Sequence record: PZ674595.1
Length of the DNA: 64,000 nucleotides
From: a phage
Direction: 5' to 3' (one strand)
The position numbers and the translations under genes were made by a program. Positions 13,568-63,368 of this stretch are shown here, one piece after another (position 1 is the stretch's first letter; the number at the start of each line of letters is the position of its first letter). A model generated the notes under the pieces. The model was not told the origin of the DNA. It did not search any database and saw only the letters and a list, made by a program, of their open reading frames with translations.

Positions 13568-13616
13568 TCGCAATTATCTTATTAAGAAAACAATTTGTTT
13601 AAAAGGATAAGAAAAC

Positions 13617-14042
13617 ATGACAGCTATTAAGAAACTCTACGATGCCGCAAACGTGGCTCTGGATGTTATTGATGATGAAGTAGCAAAAGGCTTTCCTGAA
13701 CCTGATTGGGCGCATCAGCTACGAAACGCTATCGCAGAAATGACCCCACCAGATCCAACCCCCGACGAGACAGACTGGCAGCGATTCATCCGTATGTACG
13801 CTCAGGAAATAGGTCCAACGCCAACGGCAGAGCAGGCAATGCTGCTGAAATACTTCAAAGAGGCGGGAGAGGATTTACCAATTGATGACTCAGCATATTG
13901 GTTCCACTGCGCATGGCGTAAGTATGACGTGATATTCACACAAGGCATGGGAAGCAAAGATATGGTTGTGTGGCATCTACTCCATATAGACACAGCCGTT
14001 GACAGAGTTATTGAACAGTTTTTCCCTAAACAAGAAGATTGA
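13617..14042 (+). CDS. hypothetical protein
   Basis: 141-aa ORF preceded by AAACAATTTGTTT motif and RBS. Confidence 0.4.
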   Translation: MTAIKKLYDAANVALDVIDDEVAKGFPEPDWAHQLRNAIAEMTPPDPTPDETDWQRFIRMYAQEIGPTPTAEQAMLLKYFKEAGEDLPIDDSAYWFHCAWRKYDVIFTQGMGSKDMVVWHLLHIDTAVDRVIEQFFPKQED

Positions 14043-14097
14043 TCGCCTATTCATAACTAACAAAATAAGTAAACACTAACCACAAAAGGAAAAACAC

Positions 14098-14373
14098 ATG
14101 AGAGTTTTAGTTCGAATCGTTACCAGCACTGTCTATGACGTGTTTCCGCTTTTTATGGTCAAAGCCGATGGCCTTAACGACGAAGAAACTGACGCGCTGA
14201 TCCAGCGTATTCTCGTTGAATATACAGGTCATGACGCTGATTCAGTGATGGTTGATGATGATGGTGTTTGTTGGCATAACGGCAACTGTTGGTACGTAGA
14301 AGAGACTCAACAAATCAGTGATGAAGATGCCGAACATCTTGAGCGTATTTTAAGCATCAGCACTTTTGAGTGA
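14098..14373 (+). CDS. hypothetical protein
   Basis: 91-aa ORF; RBS AAAGGAAAAACAC identical in context to many genes of the element. Confidence 0.4.
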   Translation: MRVLVRIVTSTVYDVFPLFMVKADGLNDEETDALIQRILVEYTGHDADSVMVDDDGVCWHNGNCWYVEETQQISDEDAEHLERILSISTFE

Positions 14374-14412
14374 GTTTACAGTAAAATTTATATAAGTTAG
14401 TATCTACCTATC

Positions 14413-14592
14413 ATGAAGATTTTTATTGAATACTTGTTACTCATCGTTTCAATAGCTTTTGTCATCGACTGCATTTTCACTGGTGTCATTCGTAAAGTCT
14501 TTTCCCCGGTGCACGACGTAGTCATAAACGCTTTGGCTATCGTGCTCGTATTTAATTCAGCATTTGATGTAATCAAAGAGGTGGCAGCATGA
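14413..14592 (+). CDS. small hydrophobic peptide (59 aa), below the track cutoff
   Basis: ATG at 14413, stop overlaps start of next gene (ATGA); no obvious RBS. Confidence 0.3.
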   Translation: MKIFIEYLLLIVSIAFVIDCIFTGVIRKVFSPVHDVVINALAIVLVFNSAFDVIKEVAA

Positions 14593-14924
14593 AGGCCATC
14601 CCATTCGCGCTGTTGTTCCTTTCTTCGATCGTTGTGGCCGACACCACTGTTTATCAGTGTGAAATGTCTGTAGCCGACGTTAAGAATGGCGCTCTTACCG
14701 ACGTCATAAAAGCACCATATGGAGCGATGGTCGTAGACAGCGGCGACCAGTTCTATGTTGTGCGTGACGATCGAGTGTTGTCATCCCCATATCTCACAAA
14801 TCGTAATGGCAAATTAACCGGCGTCGGAGAAGACCACTTCGTATACAACAAATACAAGGGCTTCTATGGCGTTCACGCTTCTCAGCAAAGCTACCTTTTC
14901 GATGACTGCAAGGAGGTTGGATAA
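14589..14924 (+). CDS. secreted hypothetical protein
   Basis: N-terminal signal peptide MKAIPFALLFLSSIVVA; RBS AAAGAGGTGG. Confidence 0.4.
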   Translation: MKAIPFALLFLSSIVVADTTVYQCEMSVADVKNGALTDVIKAPYGAMVVDSGDQFYVVRDDRVLSSPYLTNRNGKLTGVGEDHFVYNKYKGFYGVHASQQSYLFDDCKEVG

Positions 14925-15136
14925 TGGCATTAACACTGGCAGGTCTGGAAATCGAGAAAACAAGCGGCTACTGGCGTGCTAAGGGTTTCAAGCAGCCTGG
15001 CATTCTTGAGCGTCTGGAACGTGAAGATGGGTATATCGTCCACCAGCGGCGTGAATGGCGTATGTACGATCCAGAAACAGGAAAACTGACTACAAAAGCC
15101 GGAACACTTTGGGGTCTGTTGAAGAAAATACACTAA
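14924..15136 (+). CDS. hypothetical protein
   Basis: 70-aa ORF overlapping the upstream stop (TAATG). Confidence 0.35.
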   Translation: MALTLAGLEIEKTSGYWRAKGFKQPGILERLEREDGYIVHQRREWRMYDPETGKLTTKAGTLWGLLKKIH

Positions 15137-15184
15137 TAGCACCAACCACTGCGGTGAGTAGTCTGCTCACCGCATTCGTATCCA

Positions 15185-15625
15185 GCTCATTATCCACTGT
15201 AGTCAGTAACAAAACCTTCCTACATATCTGCTAACCACTGTAGCGAGTAGACAGCCTTTCATTCGCATCAAACAACCACTATGGTGAGTATTGGAGTGAG
15301 ATGTCCAGCGGGTATCCACTATGGTGAGTAAGCCTTTGCTGTTTTCAGTGGATATCCACTCGCCACAGTGGATACGCTCAAAGATGAGGGCGACAACAAC
15401 CACTATAGACAGTAAATTTTCCAAGATACCCAGTGACCACTAACCTCGCAGCCCTTGTTTCATCAGTGTTAGTGATCACTAACATTTAATTCAGTATTTG
15501 CATTCTACTGCCTACAGTGGTTATCAACAGATAACGATACTCACTATAGTGGATAGCGAATTACAGATATAAGTAAGGCTCACTACAGTGGATAGTGAGC
15601 CTTACTACTAACTACAGTGGTTGGG
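15185..15625. repeat. iteron array downstream of repA (P1 incA-like copy-control repeats)
   Basis: About ten copies of CCACTATAGTGG-type motifs (e.g. ATCCACTATGGTGAGTA, TCACTATAGTGGATAG, CTACAGTGGTT) in both orientations. Confidence 0.7.
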
Positions 15626-16681
15626 CTATTTGCGAGTCTTTGCCTTGCGCAACTCTTCGAGAAGCGCCAGTTCTTCTTTACTCAACATGACCATTTTGCC
15701 TTCTTTTTCGTCAGGCACAACGTCGATAATGTCATCTTGATTCTCATCTGGGAGGCTATATTCCGTCTCATCATTATCGATTTTTGTTGATATTTGTGCC
15801 TGGCGTAACTTTGGCCGCCTATAGTGGATGACGAAGTAGACCGAGTTTCCGCGCTTAACTTCCGTGTAATCGAGATATCCTATCTCTCGCAGCTGTTCCA
15901 TAGCCTTTCTTACCGTCGCATTCTGAGTAATAGTGCGACTTGTCAGATTAAGTCTGGCGCGTAAACGGGCTAGTGATATTGGTGCCGGATCAGGCGGCAA
16001 ACTTTCAATAAAAGTATAAAGCGCCTGAGCGGATTCTTTTCTTGAGAGTTCGTTTATAGCCCGGAGTTGCAGAAGAACCTTTTTGTCGAACTGGTAGAGT
16101 TCGAAAATCTTGGGATCTGCTTTCAGTTCGACCGTATCGTGCTTGACACTATATTTTGCCGTTTGCACAAGATGCGTTACGTAAAACTCATCAGAGCCTT
16201 TGCTACGGAACGAGATGGTATTTGTGGCAATACGGCTTAGCGAACTGTCCAGGCGTTTGCGTAACTTCGCTGATGACCTGGCGGTCGGAATGCCACACAG
16301 CCTTACAAACTCAACGAACGGCAACGTGACAGTATCGCCAACGACCTTGTGTTTGGCAAACGCGTGGATTATTCCCACCCACGTTTTAAAGTCGTTATCC
16401 ATATCAAGCCGAAGGCCAGAGATCCTTATGTCTTCGTACCCTTCGGCTTTTGCCAGAGACAGCTGTTTGAGTTCAGCAGAGGCATCCATAGAGACCATTT
16501 GCCCCTTTCTTCCTCTGGATGTCGATTTCAGCGTCGGAACGAAGAGGCCCAGACGCATCAAAGCAACAGGCTGAACAGTGTTATTAGTGTTAGGAACCAA
16601 CGTAACAACTTCGCCTGTCTTTTTATCTGTTTCTGAAAATGCTTCAACGATCGCTATGTTTTTATTGCCGTTTTCGCTCAT
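15626..16681 (-). CDS. repA: plasmid replication initiator, P1 RepA-like
   Basis: 351-aa ORF; [45 protein letters not shown] and [16 protein letters not shown] match P1 RepA as I recall it; flanked on both sides by iterons. Confidence 0.75.
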
Positions 16682-16689
16682 TCCAAATG

Positions 16690-17345
16690 TCTCTTGTTAT
16701 TCGACGGCTTTGGTGGCCTTTGCTGATTACAGTGGATAGTAGCACTCATCACAGCGGTTATCCTACCGTCTATAGTGGTTTTTCTCCTCTCTATAGTGGT
16801 TGCTTTGCTCCCTATAGTGGATTATTCGCTCTCTATAGTGGATATCGATCATGTCTGAAGGCAGATGGCACAACGGTTTGAGGTGGGCGGGGATCTTATT
16901 GGGTCTTTATGGGTCTCTTTGGTTCTCTTTGTGATCTGAATTACTGGATCGGGCCTGTGGATAAAAATCAGAGGATTTCAAGAACAGGTAACTCTACTCT
17001 TCTGTGGATATTTAAGGACATAAGAATCATGACTAAGAGTAGAGTTTAAAATATATCTATGTATATCAGTATGTTAATGAAGAATTAAGTCATTAAGTTA
17101 TCCATAAAAGACAATGTGCTCTACTCTCTACAGTGGATATATACAGCTCTCCAGAGTGGTTGTTTTACTCTTCATAGCGGTTATTCAGCTCTCTACAGAG
17201 GTTTCTTTGCTCTCCATAGTGGATGGCAACACCCTTTCAGACCAGTAACCGCAACGGCTAGAGGCGATCGGGGATCTCTTTGGATCTTCTATTTGATCTT
17301 ACTTGGGATCTCTTATTTGGATCTATCCAGTGGATAACTGGGATA
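16690..17345. other. origin of plasmid replication (oriV): two iteron arrays, DnaA boxes, GATC cluster, AT-rich stretch
   Basis: 21-22-bp direct repeats CTCTATAGTGG at 16740-16860 and 17116-17235; DnaA box TGTGGATAA at 16956-16964 and near-match at 17003-17011; six GATC within 17266-17323 as TGGATCT repeats; AT-rich 17040-17110; overlapping track ORFs 16639-16881 and 17116-17337 judged non-coding. Confidence 0.7.
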
Positions 17346-17424
17346 AGTAAAACAGGCAAATGCAGATTAAGGTATGCCTAATGAGTTATCGTAGCATCGG
17401 CCAATAACTACTGAAAAAACGATT

Positions 17425-18069: not shown

Positions 18070-18323
18070 CCCTCCAGATCGTATATTGGCGTAGATAGAA
18101 TCTACGCCCCCTCAAAATAGCTCTCATAGCGTTCTACAGTGATCCTGTCTTATTTTTAGTCATACAGACAAGCAAAGTTGCGCCACGATAAATAGGTATA
18201 TACTTACTTATAAATTTTGTATATTAAGGCGCTCGTTTCATTCCTAACATACCGTTATGCATAGTTGTTTACCTCCTCATTGCTCTTAGAATTTGTATCA
18301 AAATAACCACAAAGGAAAAACAC

Positions 18324-22288: not shown

Positions 22289-22297
22289 GGAGACTAT

Positions 22298-25256: not shown

Positions 25257-25362
25257 CATATGGTGGGGGATATCCCCACCTTCTCTTTGATTTGTAAACC
25301 TTGTTTAAACACATAAGATAACAACTTGTTTAAACGCACCAAAAAAGAAAAAGGAAAAACAC

Positions 25363-29615: not shown

Positions 29616-30259
29616 TGGATTACCGGATTGGGATCACTGGTGCTCAGGGCAGTGGGAAAACAACCCTGGCTAAATATATCGACAAACATTACGGAATCCC
29701 TTACGTGGATGCTGGTGTCGGAAGTTTGATGAGCCGCCTCGGTGTTCGAGTAGGTGATTCTATGCCTCTATATGAGCGGCTTCAGATTCAAATGGAAATA
29801 GCAAAGCATATAGAGCTACTTACGCGTGGTGTTGAAGGCTTTGTTATCGATCGCACACCTGCTGATGTTATGGCCTACACGTTGGATTTGGTCGGCCATA
29901 CAAATGAAGATCGGTGTATTGAGTTAGCCCTCGATATCGAAAAGTTTTGCCACAAAACTGCTATTTCAAACTTTAACGCCATTGCTGGCTTACGCCCGGG
30001 AGTCGCTCTCTCAGAGCGAGATTACTTGCGATCACAACGAGCATCATTAGACCGTCTGTATGTCGCTCGTATTGATGCGTTGATGTGCGGGGAACTGACA
30101 AAAATTCACCTGCATCCGCAAAGGGGAGATCTGCAAACCTTCGTCGTTTCCAACCGATATCGCACGGTTGAAGCAAGAGCCAGATCAGTGATGAGAATGC
30201 TAGATAACGCTGTAGAAAAGATAGAAAACCGGTTCTGTGGCCGAGTGACCGTTCATTAG
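29615..30259 (+). CDS. P-loop nucleotide kinase (putative dNMP kinase)
   Basis: Walker A GITGAQGSGKTTLAKYI; follows thyA/DHFR; RBS GAAGG. Confidence 0.45.
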   Translation: MDYRIGITGAQGSGKTTLAKYIDKHYGIPYVDAGVGSLMSRLGVRVGDSMPLYERLQIQMEIAKHIELLTRGVEGFVIDRTPADVMAYTLDLVGHTNEDRCIELALDIEKFCHKTAISNFNAIAGLRPGVALSERDYLRSQRASLDRLYVARIDALMCGELTKIHLHPQRGDLQTFVVSNRYRTVEARARSVMRMLDNAVEKIENRFCGRVTVH

Positions 30260-30320
30260 AAATTGTTCGCCTCTTCGACATTGCGACAATAAAACTCTCA
30301 AAATGGGTTAAGGATAAAAA

Positions 30321-30740
30321 ATGTTTAGTGAAATGTTGCTTGAAGATGAACTGGATCGGAAAACAACAGAGGCTTTGATTCGTGTAGCGGACGAACATTC
30401 CCGGTCGCTTATGAGCGATCGAGAGGCTCGTCTGGCTATTCGTGCCATATTCGAAACTGCGCAGGGGCTTGTTGGTACACAAGTGGGTGAAGCCATTAAC
30501 ATCGCCATGTCTCAGTTCAGTGAAGGCAGTAAAAAGCCTCTGTTTCCTATGCATTTGATGCTGGCTGGTGGCACGGTGCTTTATATCTCTGTTTGTCTGG
30601 ATAGCAACCAAATCAATATTCTCAACACTGTGTCAGGTAAGTGGAAAGATCCGATTGTCTGTGAAACCAGTGAAGAAACTTTGAAAAAAGCGGCTCAATT
30701 TGTACGTAGCGCACTACTTAAGGGCGCTAAGAAGTTGTAA
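30321..30740 (+). CDS. hypothetical protein
   Basis: 139-aa ORF; RBS AAGGATAAAAA. Confidence 0.4.
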   Translation: MFSEMLLEDELDRKTTEALIRVADEHSRSLMSDREARLAIRAIFETAQGLVGTQVGEAINIAMSQFSEGSKKPLFPMHLMLAGGTVLYISVCLDSNQINILNTVSGKWKDPIVCETSEETLKKAAQFVRSALLKGAKKL

Positions 30741-35495: not shown

Positions 35496-35588
35496 CGGTT
35501 GTTAGTGCATATGCATTGACCGTCTTTTCGTAAGCAATTCATGTAACTAGAAAACAACTTGTTTTAACAAATAACAAAAGGAAAGCAC

Positions 35589-36202: not shown

Positions 36203-36311
36203 TTGACCGAAATAGAGAGTTTGCACCTTTACGTTTAGCTTGCTCCCCTTTTATGCCACATCACAATAAAGCCAATAAGAAAACAACTTGTTTAAGCATT
36301 AGGAAAAACAC

Positions 36312-40769: not shown

Positions 40770-40907
40770 GCGCTACAAATCCTTCTGCATGAATAAATAA
40801 AGGCCATAACTTATGGCCTTAAATAAATTGTTTTCTACCTTTTCTTATTTGTGAAAATAAACCAGCACTTGGTAGTGCTTATGTAACAGCAAAGAAGAGA
40901 AAAACAC

Positions 40908-43557: not shown

Positions 43558-43577
43558 TACTGTATGAATAAACAGTA
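43558..43577 (+). promoter_or_regulatory. LexA (SOS) box upstream of umuD'-like gene
   Basis: TACTGTATGAATAAACAGTA fits CTGT-N8-ACAG consensus, 19 bp before the ATG. Confidence 0.8.
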
Positions 43578-43595: not shown

Positions 43596-43985
43596 ATGGG
43601 CTTCCCTTCTCCTGCGGCGGATTATGCAGAGAGCCGTATTTCTCTTGATCAGCAACTAATCAGACATCCTTCAGCGACCTACTTCATGCGGGCGGCAGAC
43701 AGCCATCACCGTGAGGGAATATTGCAAGGTGCTTTGCTGGTGGTTGATTCCTCACTTACCCCGGTTGATGGTTCTCTGCTTGTATGCGCTCTGGATGGGG
43801 AATATCGCGTAAAAAGATACCGGAAGTATCCACGTCAGCATCTGGAGGATTTAAGAACCGGTAAGAAGGAAGAATTGCCAAAGGATGACGATGGATGCAC
43901 GGGCAGCAATGCCGTGTTTGGTGTGATCACTCACATTATCAACGACGCAAGAAGTGGCGAGTTTGATGATTGTCCCGTGATGTAG
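43596..43985 (+). CDS. humD: UmuD'-like protein lacking the N-terminal cleavable tail (P1 HumD-like)
   Basis: MGFPSPAADYAESRISLDQQLIRHPSATYFMRA aligns with UmuD residues after the Cys-Gly cleavage site; S24 peptidase-like C-terminus; RBS GAGG. Confidence 0.8.
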   Translation: MGFPSPAADYAESRISLDQQLIRHPSATYFMRAADSHHREGILQGALLVVDSSLTPVDGSLLVCALDGEYRVKRYRKYPRQHLEDLRTGKKEELPKDDDGCTGSNAVFGVITHIINDARSGEFDDCPVM

Positions 43986-47361: not shown

Positions 47362-47475
47362 ATATAGACACAATCCCTTCTGATTTACACAGTACCTAAA
47401 ACAATTTGTTTTCTGCCTTTTGTTGATGGAGATAATAAACCACATAAGAAAACAACTTGTTTTGGAGTGGTTGAA

Positions 47476-48839: not shown

Positions 48840-49700
48840 TGTTTATACAAATAAGAAAACAACTAAATAACAGATCAACGAAACGTCAACGCTTTCACCC
48901 GATTTGGTCTAAAAAATTGACGTTTTCACACATCACTTCTTATACCCGTAACTCTACGCAGCAGACAGCGCCACAGCGTCCAATTTTCACCACAGACGAC
49001 CCAACACACTACCAACAAAAACACACGCTCAAAATCGCTCCCGTTGCGTTACACAACCATATAAACAACTTATTTTCAGGCATAACAAAACAACTAAATA
49101 ACACACATGCCATTTCCAAAAACAACCAACCTCTTTATGGCAGGCTACCGAAAAGACCCACCTCTTCTCCCCAGTCTACCGAAAAGACCCACCTCTTCTC
49201 CCCAGGCTACCGGACAACCAACCTAACTTTCACAGGCAATCCGAAAACATTCATACGCGCGATACCCACGACACGCCATTCCCCAAACAGCGAAGAAACA
49301 CCAGAATCACTGAAACCCCAACGAAGCCTGTAACCGCAAGGATTCTCTCAATCCCAAAAGACACGAAACAGAACAATCACGGGAAACGCCATTACCCAAT
49401 ACACGAATAACTACAAAAGCCTTTCACACACTCCAGACAAACAACTCAAACACAACAACGAAAGGAATCGCCCACCTGCCATTACTCCATACACGGAGAA
49501 GAACAATCACCAAAACGACGAGAACACCCCATAGAAGAACCACCGCAAAACGAACGAAACCACATACACCGACAGAGAAAACAACACACCCAATTCACCA
49601 ACAGAAATAGTCGCCGTATAGAACATTCTGGAAGGAGTGAGCATTAACGCCTATAGAGAGGTTGAGACAGATAAAACACAACATGTATAGCGAAGAAGCC
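48840..49700. repeat. strand-asymmetric C/A-rich, G-poor tract with tandem 29-bp repeats
   Basis: Plus strand almost devoid of G over ~860 bp; perfect tandem copies of CTACCGAAAAGACCCACCTCTTCTCCCCA at 49155-49183 and 49186-49214 plus a degenerate third; track ORF 48839-49333 judged a composition artefact. Confidence 0.6.
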
Positions 49701-49945: not shown

Positions 49946-50324
49946 TACCGGTATAGCGTGAGGGAGAGTTGCGGCTGTCCACCTGTAATGTGCGGGAAGA
50001 AGAGAGGCGCTCACGTGCAGGCGAACTTACTTACCGCTGGATTCCCTCTGAATGCCCAGCTACAGCGTAATTGTGCCAGACAGTCAGCGGGTCACAATCG
50101 ATTTCAGTAGGTTTTCGGGGAGAGGATTATTCTGCCCACCAGCCCCGCGGCGCGCGTAGAGCAGAATATCGTAAATACTGGCTCTCGTGTCGTTCCCGGA
50201 TATTCACTGCCAAGCCTGGCTTTCCCGACATAAAATCCTTTTTCGCCTTTGTCTTATTTCGATAATAACACCAACAAGTAAACAACATATTTAGACGTTA
50301 TAGAAACGAAGTGAGGATGAAGAG

Positions 50325-50543: not shown

Positions 50544-50548
50544 GAGTG

Positions 50549-50573: not shown

Positions 50574-50681
50574 CGCTATTAACCTCCGGGCAGCGCAGCA
50601 CCGTAACGATATACTTTGTGGCCGTTTTCTTACTGGTATTGTTTACGCAATTCAGAAAACAACATGTTTAAGGATTGCGTT

Positions 50682-51011
50682 ATGTTTGCAAATATCGACA
50701 TCAACCAAATCAAGAAAATGACTCAAAAAGAGTTTGACCAGTTTTATGAGTTAGAAGGTTGGTCTTCCACTCTGATCAATTCGCGGTGGGTGCTTGAGCT
50801 GATGACTCGTGATGACGCACCTGCTTTGATGATTTGCGACATGGGTGAAGATGCTGACTTTATGGATATGAGCGAATTTTGTGTGGACACATACAACCGC
50901 AGCCAGAAGTACTACTTCACATGCGATAGCGAAAATGACGTGATTTCTAAGATCTATCTTCACCTCGTCCAGCATTGGGACGTTCAGGAGTTTCTTGAGG
51001 TATTCGCGTAA
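50682..51011 (+). CDS. hypothetical small protein
   Basis: ATG 50682 behind AAGGA, 11 nt after motif GAAAACAACATGTTTA; track ORF starts at 50616. Confidence 0.4.
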   Translation: MFANIDINQIKKMTQKEFDQFYELEGWSSTLINSRWVLELMTRDDAPALMICDMGEDADFMDMSEFCVDTYNRSQKYYFTCDSENDVISKIYLHLVQHWDVQEFLEVFA

Positions 51012-51165
51012 TCACAATCAAAGCCAGCATTGCTGGCTTAACTTAATCTGTAGCCGCAGGGAAGAACCTGCATATCGCTCATGCGCCTGATCAATATGCT
51101 TTGTAGCCGTTTTCTTACTGGTATTATTTACGCCATTGAGAAAACAAGTTGTTTACGGAGTTGTG

Positions 51166-51477: not shown

Positions 51478-51603
51478 TAATGTGCAAGTGGTAATTAGTC
51501 GACCGTACGACAGCCCCGCCATCCTTACGGGGCTTTTTTGTATTGTAAGTACATACTTACGATCATAGAATAGAAAAATAACCAATACACTACGGAGAGT
51601 GAA

Positions 51604-52036: not shown

Positions 52037-52116
52037 AAGCCCGATAACAATTTGTTTTCTGCCTTATCTGATTTGTGAAAATGATTTCACTGAAGCAACT
52101 TAATAAGGAAACCATC

Positions 52117-52491: not shown

Positions 52492-52493
52492 AT

Positions 52494-52637: not shown

Positions 52638-52826
52638 TTATTAAGGCCACCAGCGTTGGTGGTCTTAAATAACTTTTAATAACCGAAGGTTAGTTTGAAA
52701 CCTGGCTATCAACTTCCAGAACCTTTCTTGTGTATTCAGCCTGTATTAACTTCTTTTATGCCTTATCTACACTGCGATAATTACACCAACAAGAAAACAA
52801 CATGTTTACGCAGTGAGGATATGCTC

Positions 52827-53240: not shown

Positions 53241-53312
53241 GACGCCTTATTCGTACAACGATAATTAACACCAACAAGAAAACAATTTGTTATTTACGAT
53301 AAGGAATTAATC

Positions 53313-54642: not shown

Positions 54643-54689
54643 GATAAAGCTCCTTTAAAGCGCCCATAGTGGGCGCTTGATTCCATTAA

Positions 54690-55634: not shown

Positions 55635-56156
55635 TTAAAATGGAAGGATTCGTTCAACCCAATCGAAGAAAACAAGTATTTTTCTGCCGTCTTCTAACTT
55701 AAGAGTGACCTGACAAGCATCAACGCCTCTTGACACCCCTTCTATTTCACGACCGTCTGCCATGTAGACCCTTATAGATTGGTCGTTTTGATAAGCCTTG
55801 CGACATATCGCAAAAAAGTCACGGCGTGATGGCTGATTGTCAACATAGTCTGGATGTATTGTTAGCCTACCTTTGAACTCGCGAGCAATGCCATCGATTA
55901 CACCTGATTCAATTGTGCTAATGCGCTCAAGTGGGAGTCTTATACGATTTTCTTTATCATATGGAAGCGGGCATAAATCTAGCTTATTGCGGGAAGGCAT
56001 TGTCCCCTGAACGTACATGCAAAACACCTGACCGTCTTCAAGCGTGACTCTTACAGGAATGTTGTTCTTCCGCCAGAACATAAGTATGTTTTCAGCATGT
56101 TCGTAGTCTCGCGGCCAGACTTCAGCCGGTATGCCGTAGGTGATGTCTTTAACCAT
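55635..56156 (-). CDS. hypothetical protein with internal sequence duplication (AT-rich block)
   Basis: 173 aa; two similar segments (VRVTLEDGQVFCMYVQG and IRVYMADGREIEG...VTLKLEDGRKILVFF). Confidence 0.45.
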   Translation of the reverse strand: MVKDITYGIPAEVWPRDYEHAENILMFWRKNNIPVRVTLEDGQVFCMYVQGTMPSRNKLDLCPLPYDKENRIRLPLERISTIESGVIDGIAREFKGRLTIHPDYVDNQPSRRDFFAICRKAYQNDQSIRVYMADGREIEGVSRGVDACQVTLKLEDGRKILVFFDWVERILPF

Positions 56157-56258
56157 AGTCTACCTTTTTAAGTCTTTTTTGGTCATTATATACATCTCTA
56201 TGATGCGTAGACAGACTAACCGTACATTCCACCAAAAATTGATTATGGAATAAGTTTC

Positions 56259-58010: not shown

Positions 58011-58076
58011 TGATGTGCTCCTTTCTAACAAGTGAGCACATCATAGAATTAGTAGATAGGGGGTAAATATGAAATG

Positions 58077-58355: not shown

Positions 58356-58357
58356 AA

Positions 58358-59917
58358 CTAATCTCGTTTCAGAACTCCAAAATCGAATGCGCCATCAATA
58401 GGCAATACACCTTCTGCAAAGCCAGGTGTGGTGTCGATGATGTGTTTTCGCTCATAAGAGTGAGACAACAGGTATTTGTTGCTAATGTCAATGAAATCAG
58501 TGATAAAACACACGTTTGCCTGATTTTTTTTTGCTCGTAAGCCACGACCGACACGCTGTCTCATTTCAACTTCTGCTTTCCCACCACCAGCAAGAATGAC
58601 CGCGCCCACGCTTGGCACATCAACACCGACATCCAGAATAGTCGAGCCTATTAAAACATCTATTTCGCCAGACGCTAAACTGTTCAGCTTTGCTTGCCTT
58701 GTCGCCTGGTTCGATTCCCCATAAATGAAGTCAACTCTAAGGCCGGACTCCTTCATCATCTCCATCAGGATTTGCCCGTGGCGTTTAAGACGAACCAGAG
58801 TCATACAATTGAGAGAATGTTGCTTATAGAGCAATGCTTCGCGCACAATGGCCTCGTTACGTCCCAAATTATACACGATCCCCAACTGATAAGCCTTTTG
58901 GTAGGCAGTGCTCATACCTACTCTAAAATTAAGGTGTTTGTTGGCAAGTTCCGCCTTGATTCTGACCTCGTCTGGCTTGTAAGCAACTTTATGATAAAGG
59001 AAGTACGGTTTTGCCAGAATACCTCGATCAATCAGGTACTTTTCTGTGACTTTAATTTCAATTCGCCCGGCCACAGCCATCAGACGCATGTTGGCTTCTG
59101 TAGAATCCTTCATGAACGGCGTGGCTGTAAGCGCCAGACGATAGTCTGCGTTCACACATAATCTGGCGATGTCATAGAAATTAGAGCCTGAAGACTCATG
59201 CGCCTCTTCCAGAATAAGCAGAGACACACTTGAAAGGAAGCGTTTCACCAAGTCCCGACGTTTGAGGTGGTAGCTCTTCTTATCTGGTGTTGCATCGCGT
59301 GGTGGTTCTTCAAGGAAACTTGCCAGAGTTTGAACTGTAGCGACGTTGATATGTCGTGATACCTGGAACTCACCCGAGCCAATGACTCCAACCTTTTGGT
59401 CTTTTAACCACGGTTCGCCATTTTTGGCGCGGTAGTCGATGGATCTCTGGAAGTTTTCGGCCATTTGAAACATCAGAACAGAGCGGGTTGTTAAAAATAA
59501 TGTCATTCGACCGATACGTGCAGCTGCTTTGCAGGCAACATTAGATTTCCCGCCACCAGTAGCGATCTGCGCAATCATCATTCCCTCGCGAACTAGTGTT
59601 TCCACAGTCTGATCCTGATACGCATAATCAGGATTGTATGGGAATGGGTTAACCGCCGGATTTGGCTTTCCAAGCGCCGGGGCTTTGTCTTTGCGGATAT
59701 GAACACATTTGATGCCCGCCTTGTTCAAGTTCGCCGCTACAGGCTTGGCAAAGCCAGCAGGGAACGAGTTTTTACTCCAGTTGAACATCGTGCTTGTGCC
59801 CTTCCAGTCGCCAGTCTCGACTTCGTAGCTCAACATTTGCTGCACCAGTTGCTTTACCTTGTCATCTGCGCCAGAAATAAGCGCATTTACTGCGTTAGAT
59901 ACAATCCGAACAGTCAT
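58358..59917 (-). CDS. superfamily-2 DNA helicase (UvsW-like)
   Basis: Walker A ATGGGKS, DExH-type box LILEEAHE, LTATPF, helicase C-terminal motifs GSTILDVGVDVP and QRVGRGLR; RBS AAGGAAAGAGG. Confidence 0.8.
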   Translation of the reverse strand: MTVRIVSNAVNALISGADDKVKQLVQQMLSYEVETGDWKGTSTMFNWSKNSFPAGFAKPVAANLNKAGIKCVHIRKDKAPALGKPNPAVNPFPYNPDYAYQDQTVETLVREGMMIAQIATGGGKSNVACKAAARIGRMTLFLTTRSVLMFQMAENFQRSIDYRAKNGEPWLKDQKVGVIGSGEFQVSRHINVATVQTLASFLEEPPRDATPDKKSYHLKRRDLVKRFLSSVSLLILEEAHESSGSNFYDIARLCVNADYRLALTATPFMKDSTEANMRLMAVAGRIEIKVTEKYLIDRGILAKPYFLYHKVAYKPDEVRIKAELANKHLNFRVGMSTAYQKAYQLGIVYNLGRNEAIVREALLYKQHSLNCMTLVRLKRHGQILMEMMKESGLRVDFIYGESNQATRQAKLNSLASGEIDVLIGSTILDVGVDVPSVGAVILAGGGKAEVEMRQRVGRGLRAKKNQANVCFITDFIDISNKYLLSHSYERKHIIDTTPGFAEGVLPIDGAFDFGVLKRD

Positions 59918-59999
59918 AAACCTCTTTCCTTAGTGCCTTTTGTATGTTATTTGGCTATTATAATAAGTAAGTGATTACTTAGTGGATTGTAGCAATAAA

Positions 60000-60680
60000 A
60001 TGGATGTAAAAATCACGATTTTGCAGGTTGATGTTGCCAACCTTCGCCCGAATACCTGGAACACCAATTCGGTTGGTGCGCAGAATTTTGAAAAACTGAA
60101 AGGTTCTATCGAAAAATTGGGCTTTTTTAAGCCAATTTTGGCTCGTGAACTTGAAGATGGATTTTTTGAAATCCTCGGCGGCGAACATCGCTGGCGTGCC
60201 GCTATTGAGCAAGGAATTTCAACGGTTCCGGTGCTTTCTGTGGGCAAAATTAGCGATGTCGTAGCTAAACAGATGTCACTGGTGGACAACGAGCGATACG
60301 GTGAAGACGACCAAATCGCATTGCAACGCTTCATTGAAGAAATTCAGTCAGAACTTGACTATCAGCTGTCTGAAATCGCCCCGTATGACGACGAAATCTC
60401 GATGGTTTTAGCAAAAGAGGCGGCAATCGACCTTGAAGCACTGGAGGCGTTGTCTCGTGGTAGTGATGAGCCTGTCGATACCGACAAACGAGAGAAAACC
60501 GAACGTGTGGGTGCGGAACATCAGACCATGCGCTTCAAAGTAACTTTCGATGCGTCAGATCGTGTTGCAGAAACCATAAAAAACATCATCAAAGAGCAGG
60601 CTATTAACACCGGTAATGAAATGGAGAACGCTGGTGAGGCTCTGGTGTGGCTGGTCGACTACTACAAGGAGCGTATGTAA
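60000..60680 (+). CDS. ParB N-terminal-domain (ParB/Srx fold) protein 1
   Basis: ILGGEHRWRAA arginine-finger motif of ParB-type NTP-binding domains; track ORF starts with GTG at 59982; start choice uncertain (no clear RBS). Confidence 0.6.
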   Translation: MDVKITILQVDVANLRPNTWNTNSVGAQNFEKLKGSIEKLGFFKPILARELEDGFFEILGGEHRWRAAIEQGISTVPVLSVGKISDVVAKQMSLVDNERYGEDDQIALQRFIEEIQSELDYQLSEIAPYDDEISMVLAKEAAIDLEALEALSRGSDEPVDTDKREKTERVGAEHQTMRFKVTFDASDRVAETIKNIIKEQAINTGNEMENAGEALVWLVDYYKERM

Positions 60681-61348
60681 TGACCAAAAAGTTTGAAATC
60701 GTATATCGCGACCCGGCAGATCTTATTCCCTATGAGATGAATGCCAAAAAGCATGATGAACAGCAGATCCGAGATCTAGCCGCAGCCATTAAAAAGCGCG
60801 GATTTGACCAGCCAATTACGGTCGATAAGAACGACGTAATTATTACTGGCCACGGCCGCCGTGAGGCTGCAATTTTTGCTGGACTTGAGCGCGTACCGGT
60901 TATTGTTCGCGATGATCTCAGTGATGACGAGGTTCGTGCGAAGCGCCTTGAAGATAACCGACTTGCCAGCATTGATTACGATGCAATTAAGCTACAGAAA
61001 GAGCTTGAGTCGCTTGTTCTGGACGATATCGAGGTTTTCGGCTTTGAAGAGCGTGAGTTGAATGTTCTCGTTGGCAGCATGACAGAAGAAATGGACACCG
61101 ACTCGCTAGTTATCGATCTTGGCGAAGAAACTAAACGACAGAAGGATGAACACACCGAGATCAGTCGTGAAGTTGCAGCGGAAGAAGTACGTGTTGTCGA
61201 CGTATTGGGCTTTAAAACGCTTCCTGCTGGCTCTGCCATTGTTGTTGGTGATTTGCTTGCCCACATGGAAGAAATGACGGGAGAAAGCGGGGTAGACGCA
61301 TTTGTGGCATATGCGGAGAAGATCTCTTCCGGGGAGATGGCTGCATGA
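60680..61348 (+). CDS. ParB N-terminal-domain protein 2 (paralogue)
   Basis: IITGHGRREAA motif; ATG overlaps upstream stop (TAATG); acidic C-terminus. Confidence 0.6.
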   Translation: MTKKFEIVYRDPADLIPYEMNAKKHDEQQIRDLAAAIKKRGFDQPITVDKNDVIITGHGRREAAIFAGLERVPVIVRDDLSDDEVRAKRLEDNRLASIDYDAIKLQKELESLVLDDIEVFGFEERELNVLVGSMTEEMDTDSLVIDLGEETKRQKDEHTEISREVAAEEVRVVDVLGFKTLPAGSAIVVGDLLAHMEEMTGESGVDAFVAYAEKISSGEMAA

Positions 61349-62010
61349 ACAAATACATCATCAACGTATCGTTTCAGACACGCGTAAATAAAACCACGCG
61401 CACGTTGGAAATCGCTGAGTCGTTCGGGCTTGGCCTGGACGAAAAAGAGTGGACGCTTTACGACAATCTGGAGCTGGAAGTGAAGCAGGGCGATGTGGTG
61501 TACATCACCGGCCAATCCGGTTCCGGCAAATCCGTTGTGCTGCGCGAGTTGCAACGACAGATGAAGGATGAAGGGCTGTCTGTAGCCTCCATCGATGATT
61601 TTACCTTCGATAATGAGGTTAACGTCATCGATCAGTTGGGCAAAACGACCAGCGATGCGCTTGGGTTGTTATCTATGGCTGGTCTGAACGATGCATATCT
61701 GTTTGTTCGCAAGCCTTCTGAAATGTCAGACGGTCAGAAATATCGTCTCAAGATTGCCAAACTGATTGAGTCAGGCGCTAAAGTGTGGGCTGCTGACGAG
61801 TTCGGTGCTGTTCTAGACCGTGTAACCGCTCAGGTTGTGGCATCTAACCTCCAGCGTGCCGCTCGAAAGGTTGGTGCGACGGTAATGGTGGCGACGACTC
61901 ACGAAGACCTGAAGAACGCGCTGCGCCCGGATATGCAGATCACCAAGCACTACAAAGAACGCGTGAAGGTGGAATATCACAATGGTAGTCATGATGAGGT
62001 TCATTTATGA
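61345..62010 (+). CDS. stand-alone ABC-type ATPase (nucleotide-binding domain only)
   Basis: Walker A GQSGSGKS, signature-like SDGQKYRL, Walker B VWAADEFGAVLD, H-loop ATTHED; ATGA overlap with upstream gene. Confidence 0.6.
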   Translation: MNKYIINVSFQTRVNKTTRTLEIAESFGLGLDEKEWTLYDNLELEVKQGDVVYITGQSGSGKSVVLRELQRQMKDEGLSVASIDDFTFDNEVNVIDQLGKTTSDALGLLSMAGLNDAYLFVRKPSEMSDGQKYRLKIAKLIESGAKVWAADEFGAVLDRVTAQVVASNLQRAARKVGATVMVATTHEDLKNALRPDMQITKHYKERVKVEYHNGSHDEVHL

Positions 62011-62897
62011 CGGACATCATCATTAAACGCTACCGCCCTGAAGAGTTTCCGCGTCATCTGGACTTTCTGGAGCGAATGACTGTCACAAAGGGAACTGTAG
62101 AGGACTGGCACGCTCTTAAGTCGCTTCACTACAAAACAGACGGCAAACCTTTCGCGCCAACTTACTATCGCTGCGAACTTGATGACCGTCTGGTGGGCGT
62201 CGTGGTTATGGCTTACCCGAAACTACTGCTGGCACCTCGCCACCGCATGTTTCCTAAGTTGAAACCAACCACTAATACCACCGTGGCTAACCAGTACTGG
62301 GGTCGGTACGTGAATAACAACTTTGCGGTGATCAGTCGCTCAGTTGTGGATACTCAGTATCGTGGCGTAGGCGTCTCTTATCGAATGATTAACCTGGTTA
62401 GCAGGATGCATGACCGGCCAATCATTGAGATCCAGTCCTCGATGAGCAAATACAATCCCTTCGCCATGAAAGCAGGGTTTAAGTTCATCCGCCCTGAGCG
62501 ACCGAAGAGCTATGAAAGTGCACTGCGTGTATTCCAGCGCCATTTCCGTTCCGACCCGGGTGATAACGAGGCGATCGTCAAAGAGTTGTTCGCAATGAGC
62601 GAGTCTCGTCGTCGCCGTGCACTGCGTGATCTGGTGGCGGACTACCACAAGAACAGTTCCCTGGCAAAAGCTGGGCGGAATCGTGGCACGACGATTCAGG
62701 ACATTGCCGACAGTCTGGTGGACGAGGCCAGCATTGTGAAGCTGCTCAAGGACATTCACAACCTGAGCTTTACGTCTCCGTTGTATGGTGTGTACCGAAA
62801 CCCTGACTTTGGCCGTCGACTGCCTGACACGCTGCCACTGCTGGCATTCGACAAACAACCTTTGGATAAACCGTTAGAAATTGCTTTACCGGCATAA
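62007..62897 (+). CDS. GNAT-like acyltransferase-fold protein with C-terminal extension
   Basis: Motif-A-like VDTQYRGVGVSYRMI preceded by hydrophobic strand LVGVVVMAY; ATGA overlap with ATPase gene. Confidence 0.5.
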   Translation: MTDIIIKRYRPEEFPRHLDFLERMTVTKGTVEDWHALKSLHYKTDGKPFAPTYYRCELDDRLVGVVVMAYPKLLLAPRHRMFPKLKPTTNTTVANQYWGRYVNNNFAVISRSVVDTQYRGVGVSYRMINLVSRMHDRPIIEIQSSMSKYNPFAMKAGFKFIRPERPKSYESALRVFQRHFRSDPGDNEAIVKELFAMSESRRRRALRDLVADYHKNSSLAKAGRNRGTTIQDIADSLVDEASIVKLLKDIHNLSFTSPLYGVYRNPDFGRRLPDTLPLLAFDKQPLDKPLEIALPA

Positions 62898-62906
62898 GGA
62901 TTTGCC

Positions 62907-63173
62907 ATGACGTTAACCGATAAACAAAAGGACATCATCAAAACGCTCAATCTCGGTTATGAGCGAGGTCATCTACTTGACCTGGACGAATTGCTTGAAG
63001 TTTTGCCGTACAAGACAACCAAGCAAAGTATCCAGTTCTCAATTCGCGCTCTGATAAAAAAGGGGCTGGTGGAGAAAGGGCATACGCGCCAACGCAGTGA
63101 CAATCGCTATCACCGCCGAACTCTTGGGTTAACCACTTTAGGTCGAGCCAAAGCGAAGTTACTGGTGATGTAA
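62907..63173 (+). CDS. small putative winged-helix DNA-binding protein
   Basis: 88-aa basic ORF 10 nt after the GNAT-like gene; RBS AAGGA. Confidence 0.4.
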   Translation: MTLTDKQKDIIKTLNLGYERGHLLDLDELLEVLPYKTTKQSIQFSIRALIKKGLVEKGHTRQRSDNRYHRRTLGLTTLGRAKAKLLVM

Positions 63174-63192
63174 TCGGTCTGGGAGCTTATTT

Positions 63193-63253
63193 AAAGACCT
63201 GCATCTGTATATATAAATAATAAGTAACTTATTAAATATATACGGAAGCAGGC
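63193..63253. repeat. copy 2 of the conserved inverted-repeat element
   Basis: Right arm ATATACGGAAGCAGGCT identical to copy at 33074-33132; left arm diverged; loop carries AATAAGTAACTTATT palindrome. Confidence 0.55.
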
Positions 63254-63368
63254 TTCGTAAGACATGCCAGACCTAATTAAACACCTCAGAAAACAAGTTG
63301 GTTAGCAGATGCAGTAAACAAGTTGTTTTAGAGCGCATGGACGCGCTCTGTGTGTTTTAGAGGGATCT

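What the first reader, a model, noticed from the sequence alone, without database searches (positions are those of the whole stretch)
13586..63330. Recurrent 13-15-bp palindrome AAACAAnnTGTTT immediately upstream of at least 12 genes
Seen in sequence: near-identical GAAAACAACTTGTTTAA-type motifs at about 13586, 25319, 35550, 36279, 47398, 47448, 50655, 51140, 52046, 52792, 53278, 63288 and 63317, almost always 10-60 nt upstream of a plus-strand start codon and often extended as ACACCAACAAGAAAACAA (50265, 52776, 53266). Some share a second conserved segment TTGTTTTCTRCCTT...TTTGTGAAAA (40828, 47401, 52047). Inference: a palindromic site so close to start codons is more likely the operator of a dimeric regulator or a phage-specific promoter element than an RNA hairpin (the loop would be only 1-3 nt). 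It defines a co-regulated gene set that includes the small-gene array and the terminase gene.
Basis: partly seen in the sequence, partly recalled or inferred. Interest (0 to 1): 0.5.

Follow-up and report, generated by a model that had tools for sequence, protein, structure and literature searches.

The report
Recurrent operator in phage-plasmid promoters
A 13-base palindrome repeated in front of about fourteen gene groups of an SSU5-type phage-plasmid is a real, family-wide control site. It sits at two fixed positions on ordinary bacterial promoters and is most likely where a repressor binds to keep the phage's early genes and packaging operon silent during plasmid life.

Summary
AAACAA-N-TTGTTT occurs at 10 exact sites (16 with up to 1 mismatch) against about 0.06 expected. 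Of the 16, 15 are intergenic. It is the top palindrome in this window and in three diverged relatives. The window is about 97-98% identical to Escherichia phage Cyrano (pLF82), an SSU5/pHCM2/pMT1-type phage-plasmid.

The dyad is tied to promoters, not to start codons. It sits in two fixed registers of extended -10 sigma-70 promoters (TGnGATAAT): centre about +14 and centre about -38. When both are present they are exactly 51 bp apart.

Variation is one-sided and symmetric (1 compensatory change in 229 instances), and the RNA hairpin is worth only -0.7 kcal/mol. This points to a duplex-DNA operator, not an RNA structure. Downstream genes are silent in published lysogen RNA-seq.

The binder is unresolved. 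Largely excluded are the Xre repressor, the ParB-like pair, the 88-aa wHTH-like protein and the small par-operon protein. The element's FljA homologue tracks the motif across lineages and is expressed in lysogens. However, it has a tandem Sm/Hfq fold, which implies RNA binding.

Verdict: a new member of a known kind, the dispersed operator regulon. Moderate interest.

The parts
13588..13600 (+). Dyad AAACAATTTGTTT, downstream type (5' AGA), 16 nt before the ATG of the DUF7238 gene (13617) that heads the CY58-62 operon
25319..25331 (+). Dyad TAACAACTTGTTT (1 mismatch), downstream type, in the nrdA-nrdB intergenic region before nrdB (25363)
35552..35564 (+). Dyad AAACAACTTGTTT, downstream type, before the tciA/TerB-like gene (35589). 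Conserved in 5 of 5 lineages.
36262..36293 (+). -10 CACAAT (36262-36267) followed 13 nt later by dyad AAACAACTTGTTT (36281-36293), before the CY87 homologue (36312)
40821..40858 (+). Upstream-type dyad AAATAAATTGTTT (40821-40833), then TCTACCTTTTCTTATT and the extended -10 TGtGAAAAT (hexamer 40853-40858). Promoter of orf242 (40908).
47399..47462 (+). Double-operator promoter: upstream dyad 47399-47411, -10 GATAAT 47431-47436, downstream dyad 47450-47462. Centres are 51 bp apart. Drives the DUF5983 gene (47476). The same layout occurs in three relatives.
49063..49075 (.). Dyad AAACAACTTATTT (1 mismatch), unclassified register. Lies inside the annotated CYRAN_103 homologue but is conserved and intergenic in SSU5.
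50261..50292 (+). -10 GATAAT (50261-50266), then ACACCAACAAGT and a degenerate dyad AAACAACATATTT (50280-50292), before orf72 (50325)
50637..50669 (+). Extended -10 TGgTATTGT (hexamer 50637-50642) and downstream dyad AAACAACATGTTT (50657-50669), before the CY105 homologue (SD-supported ATG at 50682)
51122..51154 (+). Extended -10 TGgTATTAT (hexamer 51122-51127) and downstream dyad AAACAAGTTGTTT (51142-51154), before the CY106 homologue (51166)
52045..52082 (+). Upstream-type dyad TAACAATTTGTTT (52045-52057), then TCTGCCTTATCTGATT and the extended -10 TGtGAAAAT (hexamer 52077-52082). Promoter of the CY108 homologue.
52776..52807 (+). Extended -10 TGcGATAAT (hexamer 52776-52781) and downstream dyad AAACAACATGTTT (52795-52807), before the CY110 homologue
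53260..53292 (+). -10 GATAAT (53260-53265) and downstream dyad AAACAATTTGTTA (53280-53292), before the CY111 homologue (53313)
63291..63350 (+). Late-operon leader: dyad AAACAAGTTGGTT (63291-63303), second dyad AAACAAGTTGTTT (63316-63328, 25 bp later), then a terminator-like hairpin 63329-63350 plus TGTGTTTT, before terS (63369). Some lineages have one dyad, a 25-bp unit difference.
55635..56156 (-). FljA-family gene (tandem Sm/Hfq-like fold). It is the only regulator-like gene whose presence or absence follows the dyad across the lineages examined. Candidate trans-factor, not shown to bind.

Best explanation
AAACAA-N-TTGTTT is a duplex-DNA operator built into a roughly 70-bp promoter cassette that is specific to SSU5/pHCM2/pMT1-type phage-plasmids.

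The cassette is an ordinary host sigma-70 promoter of the extended -10 type (TGnGATAAT with a weak -35). The dyad occupies one or both of two fixed registers. In the first, its centre is at about +14, with the -10 ending 14-15 nt before the dyad. In the second, its centre is at about -38, with the -10 ending 25 nt after it. When both are present the centres are 51 bp apart, about five helical turns. The extended half (AGAAAACAA / TTGTTTTCT) always faces the core promoter.

Both registers lie inside the RNA polymerase footprint, so a dimeric protein bound there should occlude or trap polymerase. That makes it a repressor operator.

About 14 transcription units in this window carry the dyad: the CY58-62 operon, nrdB, tciA, CY87, orf242, the DUF5983 gene, the small-gene array and the head of the terS late operon. 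At least four more carry it in the rest of the genome (parA, helicase, a weak copy before primase, and cobT). Together they form one regulon that is shut in the plasmid-prophage state.

Shown here: the motif, its enrichment, its two registers, its family-wide conservation, its symmetric non-compensatory constraint, the lack of RNA structure, and the silence of downstream genes in lysogens.

Inferred: transcription start positions, repression as the mode of action, and the existence of a dimeric DNA-binding regulator. The regulator is not identified.
For: - Enrichment: 16 against 0.06 expected; top palindrome in the window and in three relatives, including a branch with typically 45-85% protein identity.
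- Location: 15 of 16 sites are intergenic against a 16% background.
- Register: 34 of 57 sites have a -10 hexamer with A2/T6 and at least 4 of 6 matches exactly in register, against about 5% background per register. Most of these hexamers carry TGn.
- Double sites are exactly 51 bp apart in four genomes.
- The -38 copies usually follow terminators, so they are not transcribed from their own promoter.
- Variation: of 229 unique instances, 111 are perfect. Changes are one-sided and evenly split between left and right halves, with 1 compensatory pair.
- The RNA hairpin is worth -0.7 kcal/mol with z about 0.
- Footprinting: the dyad is a conserved island upstream of helicase (down to 65% protein identity), cobT (6 of 7), tciA (5 of 5) and parA (10 of 10).
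- Expression: genes directly downstream are at background in LF82 lysogen RNA-seq. Values are terS 7, cobT 8, CY58 6, nrdB 13, tciA 7, CY87 7, CY93 6 and CY101 7, against a median of 9.8. Motif-less minus-strand maintenance genes are expressed (PMC9928086 supplement).
- The cassette occurs in multiple copies only in SSU5-type contigs.
Against: - No transcription start, binding or reporter data exist. The -10 assignments are consensus matches, and the strict -35/-10 scan does not call these promoters.
- No classical DNA-binding candidate survives scrutiny.
  - The Xre repressor has its own, different dyad.
  - The ParB-like pair is silent in lysogens and is retained in a motif-less relative.
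  - The 88-aa wHTH-like protein is retained (61%) in the motif-less relative.
  - The small par-operon protein is absent from pMT1, which keeps the sites. It is present with an unchanged putative reading head in the Providencia element, which lacks them.
- The one protein that follows the motif phyletically, the FljA-like protein, has an RNA-binding Sm fold.
- The parA operon carries the dyad yet is expressed in lysogens.
- About 40% of sites lack a recognisable -10 in register.
Confidence: 0.55

Rival explanations
1. The motif is the target of the element's FljA homologue (55635-56156, minus strand) and is read mainly on RNA. The +14 copies place AGAAAACAAnUUGUUU at the 5' end of the leader, 5-25 nt before the Shine-Dalgarno sequence. 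Binding by the tandem-Sm protein would block ribosome loading and destabilise the mRNA, as FljA does to fliC mRNA in Salmonella.
For: - Full-length PF03614 match, E = 5e-81.
- Phyletic tracking: the FljA-like gene is present in all motif-bearing lineages, including the deep branch and pMT1, and is absent from the motif-less Providencia relative.
- It is expressed in lysogens at log2 7-8 in 4 of 5 conditions.
- Many promoters keep only the A-rich leader half AGAAAACAA.
- The Salmonella fliC leader contains CAAGTTGT, the dyad core.
Against: - The -38 copies are 28% of sites overall and half of the sites in the deep branch. They are as well conserved as the +14 copies, but they lie upstream of the start and mostly behind terminators.
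- A dyad with symmetric constraint has no meaning for single-stranded RNA, and the hairpin is unstable and shows no covariation.
- The protein is only 34% identical in a branch where the site is unchanged.
- The fliC leader scores 3 bits on the site PWM against 17-21 for real sites, P = 0.02-0.09.
- The phyletic evidence rests on a single motif-less lineage in which 48% of all proteins are missing.
Confidence: 0.25
2. The dyad is a positive-control or promoter-class element. A phage-encoded activator bound at about -38 substitutes for the weak -35 and switches on a temporal class of promoters after induction.
For: - The cassette promoters have weak -35 hexamers.
- A centre at -38 is close to class II activator positions (established knowledge).
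- The genes are off in lysogens, which would equally fit a missing activator.
Against: - Most copies sit at +14, where activation is unusual. Promoters with both copies would then be activated and blocked by the same protein.
- Extended -10 promoters generally do not need a -35 or an activator (established knowledge).
- No sigma-like or activator-like gene tracks the motif.
Confidence: 0.06
3. The dyads are the terminal inverted repeats, or junctions, of a small promoter cassette spread by recombination. This would resemble the promoter-stem-loop cassettes of T4-type hyperplastic regions. No dedicated trans-factor would be involved.
For: - The upstream dyad plus TCT and AGA plus the downstream dyad are 16-nt reverse complements flanking the promoter core. 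Upstream-only promoters still keep the 9-nt pair TTGTTTTCT...AGAAAACAA.
- The interior TCTGCCTT is conserved although it has no obvious promoter role.
- The cassettes cluster in the variable small-gene array.
Against: - Downstream-only sites dominate and lack a partner repeat.
- The dyad is kept at orthologous core-gene promoters across deep divergence while the flanks drift. That indicates purifying selection on the site itself rather than recent spread.
- Per-position constraint is very strong: 111 perfect copies of 229.
Confidence: 0.05
4. The dyads are dispersed centromere/operator sites of the type Ib partition system. On this reading, the small protein encoded after parA (Cyrano 29975-30334, outside the window) couples segregation to silencing, as omega of pSM19035 does or as the dispersed IR sites of N15 do.
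For: - The dyad is the only conserved dyad in the parA promoter, in the repressing register, in 10 of 10 lineages.
- parA is a small Walker ParA.
- The small protein has a disordered basic tail plus a beta-alpha-alpha pattern with invariant segments and is well expressed in lysogens.
- N15 has four separate centromere sites.
Against: - There is no repeat array upstream of parA.
- pMT1 lacks the gene but keeps 7 sites.
- The Providencia relative keeps the protein with an almost unchanged putative reading strand (KSRTVS) but has no sites, not even at parA.
Confidence: 0.04
5. The dyad is the binding site of a host transcription factor shared by Enterobacteriaceae and Yersinia, which the element exploits.
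For: - The site is invariant across elements living in Escherichia, Klebsiella, Salmonella, Enterobacter and Yersinia.
- It is absent from the relative living in Providencia, a member of the Morganellaceae.
Against: - I know of no E. coli regulator with this consensus (from memory, not tested).
- Outside SSU5-type contigs the extended motif occurs only as scattered single matches.
- The host chromosome itself was not scanned.
Confidence: 0.03

Closest known systems
Dispersed C1 immunity operators of phage-plasmid P1
   Same: A plasmid-prophage in which one short operator sequence is scattered over the genome, at many promoters of lytic and accessory operons. A single factor can therefore hold many transcription units shut in the lysogen (established knowledge).
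   Different: - P1 operators are asymmetric 17-mers (ATTGCTCTAATAAATTT). None occurs here, even with 3 mismatches allowed.
- The present site is a perfect 13-bp dyad in two fixed registers of extended -10 promoters.
- No C1 homologue was seen, and the element's Xre-type repressor has its own, different dyad.
KorB/KorA global regulon of IncP plasmid RK2 (OB sites)
   Same: A 13-bp odd-centred palindrome repeated about a dozen times on one replicon. Some copies are centred about 39-40 bp upstream of transcription starts and silence many operons in the plasmid state (established knowledge).
   Different: - The sequence is unrelated (TTTAGCSGCTAAA).
- The ParB-like pair encoded here is transcriptionally silent in lysogens and is retained in a relative that lacks the dyad.
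- The registers here are strict (-38 and +14) rather than spread over three distance classes.
FljA acting on the fliC mRNA leader (Salmonella flagellar phase variation)
   Same: The element encodes a full-length FljA-family protein. Most dyads lie in 5' leaders close to the ribosome-binding site, where FljA acts on fliC. The fliC leader shares the core CAAGTTGT.
   Different: - There would be about 20-25 targets instead of one.
- A quarter of the sites lie upstream of the start.
- The PWM similarity to the fliC leader is weak.
- Identity to chromosomal FljA is only about 40%.
Promoter-early stem-loop (PeSL) cassettes of T4-type phages
   Same: A short conserved promoter module is repeated in front of many small ORFs in a plastic genome region. 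Each small gene is its own transcription unit (established knowledge).
   Different: - The dyad here is not a stable stem-loop.
- It also sits at core genes (parA, helicase, nrdB, terS) and is conserved at orthologous positions across deep divergence.
Dispersed centromere sites of linear phage-plasmid N15 and the omega regulon of pSM19035
   Same: Partition-protein binding sites are scattered on a plasmid-prophage, or are used as operators of several operons (established knowledge).
   Different: The partition-linked small protein does not follow the dyad across lineages, and there is no repeat array at parA.

Membership tests
Sigma-70 extended -10 promoter | TGn immediately upstream of a -10 hexamer with A at position 2 and T at position 6 | tested here: met
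   In-register hexamers are mostly GATAAT, GAAAAT, TATTAT or TATTGT, preceded by TG in most cases. Examples: 50637, 51122, 52776, 40853, 52077.
Sigma-70 extended -10 promoter | Transcription starts 6-8 nt downstream of the hexamer | not testable with these tools
   No 5'-end data were available. The strict -35/-10 scan does not call these promoters because the -35 is weak.
Palindromic operator of a dimeric repressor | Dyad symmetry, with both halves equally constrained and no compensatory change | tested here: met
   229 instances: 111 perfect, left and right changes about equal at every mirrored pair, 1 compensatory pair.
Palindromic operator of a dimeric repressor | Site overlaps the RNA polymerase footprint at a fixed position | tested here: met
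   There are two registers relative to the -10, centred at about +14 and about -38, with double sites 51 bp apart in 4 genomes. These positions rest on inferred start sites.
Palindromic operator of a dimeric repressor | A cognate duplex-DNA-binding protein | tested here: inconclusive
   The Xre repressor, the ParB-like pair, the 88-aa wHTH-like protein and the small par protein each fail at least one test. CY37 (wHTH-like by eye) and CY62 fit the phyletic profile but are uncharacterised.
Palindromic operator of a dimeric repressor | Target genes are off when the regulator is present | tested here: inconclusive
   Downstream genes are at background in lysogen RNA-seq, except parA. This is correlative only.
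P1 C1 operator regulon | Asymmetric 17-bp consensus ATTGCTCTAATAAATTT | tested here: not met
   0 matches with up to 3 mismatches.
IncP KorB OB regulon | The TTTAGCSGCTAAA palindrome bound by a ParB-family protein that is made in the plasmid state | tested here: not met
   One chance-level match inside the polymerase gene. The ParB-like genes are silent in lysogens and are retained in the motif-less relative.
FljA / fliC-leader post-transcriptional operator | An FljA-family protein with an RNA-binding fold is encoded by the element | tested here: met
FljA / fliC-leader post-transcriptional operator | The target lies in the transcribed 5' leader near the ribosome-binding site | tested here: inconclusive
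   True, by inference, for the +14 copies (about 60% of sites). Not true for the -38 copies (28%).
FljA / fliC-leader post-transcriptional operator | Target sequence resembles the fliC leader operator | tested here: inconclusive
   Shares CAAGTTGT, but the PWM score is 3.1 against 17-21 for real sites, P = 0.02-0.09. The mapped FljA site on fliC was not available, because the primary papers are not held.
Type Ib partition centromere/operator (ParG / omega type) | A small ParA plus a small ribbon-helix-helix centromere-binding protein | tested here: inconclusive
   ParA_partition at 2e-33. For the small protein, only a weak RHH-family hit at 2e-4. The AF2 monomer has pLDDT 64 and there is no structural or profile match.
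Type Ib partition centromere/operator (ParG / omega type) | Sites co-occur with the centromere-binding protein, and repeats form an array at parA | tested here: not met
   pMT1 has the sites without the protein. The Providencia relative has the protein without the sites. There is a single dyad at parA.
Stable RNA hairpin / intrinsic terminator | Thermodynamically stable stem, with covariation across homologues | tested here: not met
   -0.7 kcal/mol with z about 0. 1 compensatory change in 229 instances. No Rfam family lies at any site.

The most novel reading that the evidence does not exclude
The conserved 'flagellin repressor' homologue carried by more than 800 SSU5/pHCM2/pMT1-type phage-plasmids is not a host-directed moron. 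On this reading it is the element's own global silencer: a tandem-Sm (Hfq-like) protein that recognises the AGAAAACAAnUUGUUU leader code on some 20-25 early, accessory and late-operon transcripts, and perhaps the same sequence on melted or duplex promoter DNA. That would give the plasmid-prophage a post-transcriptional layer of lysogeny control in addition to its Xre-type repressor.
Probability: 0.2. Interest if true: 0.75.

Novelty: new member of a known kind. Interest (0 to 1): 0.45.

Why it matters
SSU5-type phage-plasmids are abundant in clinical Enterobacterales. The marker genes used here hit about 800 plasmids in PLSDB, including pHCM2 of Salmonella Typhi and pMT1 of Yersinia pestis. 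The family is reported to carry antibiotic-resistance genes (PMC9600943).

I found no description of their transcriptional wiring in the held literature.

- The dyad and its promoter cassette give a sequence-level map of one regulon, and the TAAGTAnnTACTTA dyad appears to map a second.
- They correct several annotated gene starts.
- They predict exactly which bases to mutate to test lysogeny control.
- They narrow the regulator search to a short list that can be tested directly.

If the FljA-like protein is the regulator, it would also explain why a 'flagellin repressor' is a core gene of these elements.

Tried and rejected
- **RNA hairpin:** rejected. It is unstable and shows no covariation. 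No Rfam family lies at any site.
- **Xre-type lysogeny repressor (CYRAN_45) as binder:** its own switch region has a different dyad, GGTAAGTGCTTACC, and no AAACAA site. It is also retained in the motif-less Providencia element.
- **ParB-like pair (59982-61348) as a KorB analogue:** silent in lysogens and retained in the motif-less relative.
- **88-aa wHTH-like protein (62907-63173):** well conserved and next to the late leader, but low in lysogens and retained (61%) in the motif-less relative. It may instead serve the late operon.
- **Small par-operon protein:** an attractive candidate because of the parA promoter dyad, but contradicted by pMT1 and Providencia. Its fold is unconfirmed.
- **fliC-leader resemblance:** real at the 8-mer level but statistically weak. 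The E. coli K-12 leader has no match.
- **Search for the cassette outside the family:** a scan of viral contigs found only chance single matches in AT-rich contigs.
- **Half-site clustering as a centromere-like array at parA:** not found.
- **Literature:** nothing was found on an SSU5-family operator. The primary FljA papers are not held.

Full report
**What the window is.** The window is 97-98% identical to Escherichia phage Cyrano (pLF82 of E. coli LF82, OV696614.1). It covers Cyrano positions about 43.7-108.4 kb and then runs into the small-terminase gene. Cyrano is an SSU5/pHCM2-type phage-plasmid that is inducible by ciprofloxacin (PMC9928086). The window holds replication, recombination and nucleotide-metabolism genes, a variable array of small genes and a few minus-strand maintenance genes. 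The late structural operon begins at its right end.

**Checking the observation.**
- The pattern as written gives 16 strand-matches (10 sites) against 0.06 expected. With one mismatch it gives 32 against 2.6.
- The real symmetry is AAACAA-N-TTGTTT.
- A census of all 5+5 palindromes with 0-4 nt gaps ranks it first in the window. It also ranks first in three relatives fetched through an unrelated gene: SSU5 and two Klebsiella plasmids of a deep branch.
- Of 16 sites, 15 are intergenic although only 16% of the window is intergenic.
- In the complete Cyrano genome the dyad is absent from the 28-kb structural operon. It recurs before parA, the helicase gene and cobT, and as a tandem pair before terS.

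**Anatomy.** I aligned sites on the dyad. The conserved column outside the dyad is the last T of a -10-like hexamer, and the distance to the ATG floats. Across 57 sites in five sequences two discrete classes appear.
- Sites preceded by AGA have a -10 hexamer ending 14-15 nt upstream. The hexamer is mostly GATAAT, usually with TGn.
- Sites followed by TCT have such a hexamer ending exactly 25 nt downstream.
- 34 of 57 sites are in register, against about 5% per register by chance.

With a start 7 nt after the hexamer, the dyad centres fall at about +14 and about -38.

Four genomes have a promoter with both copies, exactly 51 bp apart. In this window that is 47399/47450.

The extended half (AGAAAACAA, or TTGTTTTCT on the other strand) always faces the core promoter. 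Many promoters with an upstream dyad keep only the AGAAAACAA half in their leader.

The strict -35/-10 consensus scan does not call these promoters. This is consistent with extended -10 promoters that have weak -35 elements.

**DNA or RNA.**
- As RNA the dyad folds at -0.7 kcal/mol, no better than shuffles.
- In 229 unique instances from SSU5-type sequences, 111 are perfect. Changes are one-sided and evenly split between the halves at every mirrored position. Only one compensatory pair exists, and doubles at mirror positions occur at chance frequency.
- The -38 copies lie upstream of the start and usually behind a terminator.
- No Rfam family lies at any site.

This is the signature of a duplex site read by sequence.

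**Selection.** The dyad is a conserved island at orthologous promoters.
- Upstream of helicase it is invariant down to 65% protein identity while the flanks diverge.
- It is kept in 6 of 7 lineages at cobT, 5 of 5 at tciA and 10 of 10 at parA. The parA promoter reads TTTACA-17-TAGGCT-15-dyad.
- At terS, lineages differ by a clean 25-bp unit, giving one or two dyads.
- The extended motif occurs in multiple copies only in SSU5-type viral contigs.

**Expression.** Published RNA-seq of the LF82 lysogen (PMC9928086 supplement) has a median of 9.8 normalised reads for Cyrano genes.
- Genes directly downstream of a dyad sit at background: terS 7, cobT 8, CY58 6, nrdB 13, tciA 7, CY87 7, CY93 6, CY101 7 and CY105-110 at 6-13.
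- The exception is parA (50), whose promoter has a near-consensus -35.
- Minus-strand maintenance genes that lack the dyad are expressed: hicAB, repA, the minD-like gene and CY117-118.

This fits negative control in the plasmid state, but it is only a correlation.

**Who binds.** I tested the candidates one by one.
- **Xre-type repressor:** it has its own dyad, GGTAAGTGCTTACC, in its switch region and no AAACAA site there.
- **ParB-like pair:** silent in lysogens.
- **88-aa protein just upstream of the late leader:** it reads like a winged helix and is 78% conserved in the deep branch, but it is poorly expressed in lysogens.
- **Small protein after parA:** it looked promising. It follows a small Walker ParA, and it has a disordered basic tail plus a beta-alpha-alpha pattern with invariant segments. 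The dyad is also the only conserved dyad in the parA promoter. Its fold could not be confirmed.

Two natural experiments then bear on these candidates.
- Y. pestis pMT1 has lost parA and this small protein but keeps seven dyads. This is weak evidence, because the decay is recent.
- A distant SSU5-type plasmid from Providencia shares 63 of 122 proteins. It keeps the small par protein with an almost unchanged putative reading strand, the ParB-like pair, the 88-aa protein and the Xre repressor. It has no exact dyad and no cassette anywhere, not even at parA, helicase, cobT or terS.

The proteins present in the deep branch and in pMT1 but absent from Providencia are CY34, 37, 38, 56, 57, 59, 61, 62, 69-71, 111 and 114. 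Only CY114, the FljA homologue, has a recognised nucleic-acid-binding fold. CY37 looks like a small winged helix by eye, and CY62 is unknown.

**The FljA homologue.**
- The gene at 55635-56156 (minus strand) is a full-length PF03614 protein.
- It occurs in 831 plasmids of this family.
- It is about 40% identical to chromosomal FljA.
- It is expressed in lysogens.
- FljA is described as a translational repressor that binds the fliC mRNA leader.
- The Salmonella fliC leader contains CAAGTTGT, the core of the dyad. However, it scores only 3 bits on the site PWM against 17-21 for real sites, P = 0.02-0.09.
- The protein is only 34% identical in the deep branch, where the site is unchanged.

An Sm-fold protein could explain the +14 copies and the A-rich leader half. 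It does not explain the symmetric constraint or the -38 copies.

**Verdict.**
- Most likely (0.55): the dyad is a duplex-DNA operator in two fixed registers of extended -10 host-type promoters. It defines a regulon of early, accessory and late-leader promoters that is shut in the plasmid state. The repressor is unidentified.
- Main rival (0.25): the FljA-like Sm protein reads the same sequence on leader RNA.
- Minor rivals: an activator site, a repeat-bounded mobile promoter cassette, partition-protein sites and a host factor.

The kind of system is known. P1 C1 operators and RK2 KorB sites are the closest analogues, and their consensus sequences are absent here. I found no description of this particular operator and cassette in the held literature.

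**Limits.**
- All promoter positions are inferred from consensus.
- Repression is inferred from position and from one RNA-seq data set.
- The phyletic argument rests on one motif-less lineage and on tblastn detection of small proteins.
- The host chromosome was not scanned.

Noticed in passing
window 1510, 8920, 12444, 18193, 27594, 32429, 39625/39629, 51546, 59968: A second dispersed palindrome, TAAGTAnnTACTTA, gives 10 matches against 0.13 expected. It lies in a complementary set of intergenic regions, within or overlapping the -35/-10 spacer of other promoters (for example TTGAAA-17-TATTAT at 12444 and TTGTAA-17-TAGAAT at 51546). It also occurs between late structural genes of Cyrano. It probably marks a second regulon.
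   Followed up: partly
window 63329-63350 (and 63218-63235): A terminator-like hairpin (TAGAGCGC...GCGCTCTG followed by TGTGTTTT) sits in the leader of the late terS operon, between the dyads and the ribosome-binding site, and is conserved across lineages. This suggests the late operon needs antitermination. A conserved AATAAGTnACTTATT dyad lies about 80 nt upstream.
   Followed up: partly
window 43558-43577: A perfect LexA box, TACTGTATGAATAAACAGTA, lies 19 nt upstream of the umuD-like (peptidase S24) gene at 43596-43985. This fits the reported SOS inducibility of Cyrano.
   Followed up: no
window 55635-56156 (-): The FljA family (PF03614, 'repressor of phase-1 flagellin') is predicted with good confidence to consist of two tandem Sm/Hfq-like domains preceded by an invariant, disordered N-terminal arm (DITYGIPAEVWPRDY).
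   Followed up: yes
window 6800-7218 (-): Rfam cspA thermoregulator match (185.7 bits) together with a 70-aa CspA-family ORF (6828-7040, [21 protein letters not shown]...). It lies in a gap of the Cyrano annotation, so the phage-plasmid carries a cold-shock gene with its thermosensing 5'UTR.
   Followed up: partly
window 11325-12398: recA is 357 aa here, whereas CYRAN_55 is 2340 nt. The Cyrano copy carries an insertion of about 1.3 kb (possibly an intein or homing element) that this window lacks.
   Followed up: no
window 50661, 52081, 52758: The annotated starts of the CYRAN_105, 108 and 110 homologues fall inside the dyad or the -10 hexamer, or upstream of the promoter. ATGs supported by a Shine-Dalgarno sequence lie downstream, at 50682, about 52117 and about 52827. 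These starts are probably mis-called.
   Followed up: partly
L003 42605-42618 (Cyrano, outside the window): The switch region between the Xre-type repressor (CYRAN_45) and CYRAN_46 carries the perfect dyad GGTAAGTGCTTACC plus GGTAAG/CTTACC half-sites. These are presumably the lysogeny repressor's own operators.
   Followed up: partly
CP096299.1 (L134-L137): A Providencia plasmid is a distant SSU5-type phage-plasmid, with 63 of 122 proteins shared and 38% GC. It lacks both the AAACAA dyad cassette and the fljA-like gene, which makes it a useful outgroup for dissecting the family's regulation.
   Followed up: yes
window 47399-47462 and relatives: The upstream dyad plus TCT and AGA plus the downstream dyad are 16-nt reverse complements of each other, with a 35-nt spacer that holds the -10. 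Read-through RNA could therefore fold into a long A/U-rich hairpin that encloses the promoter core.
   Followed up: no
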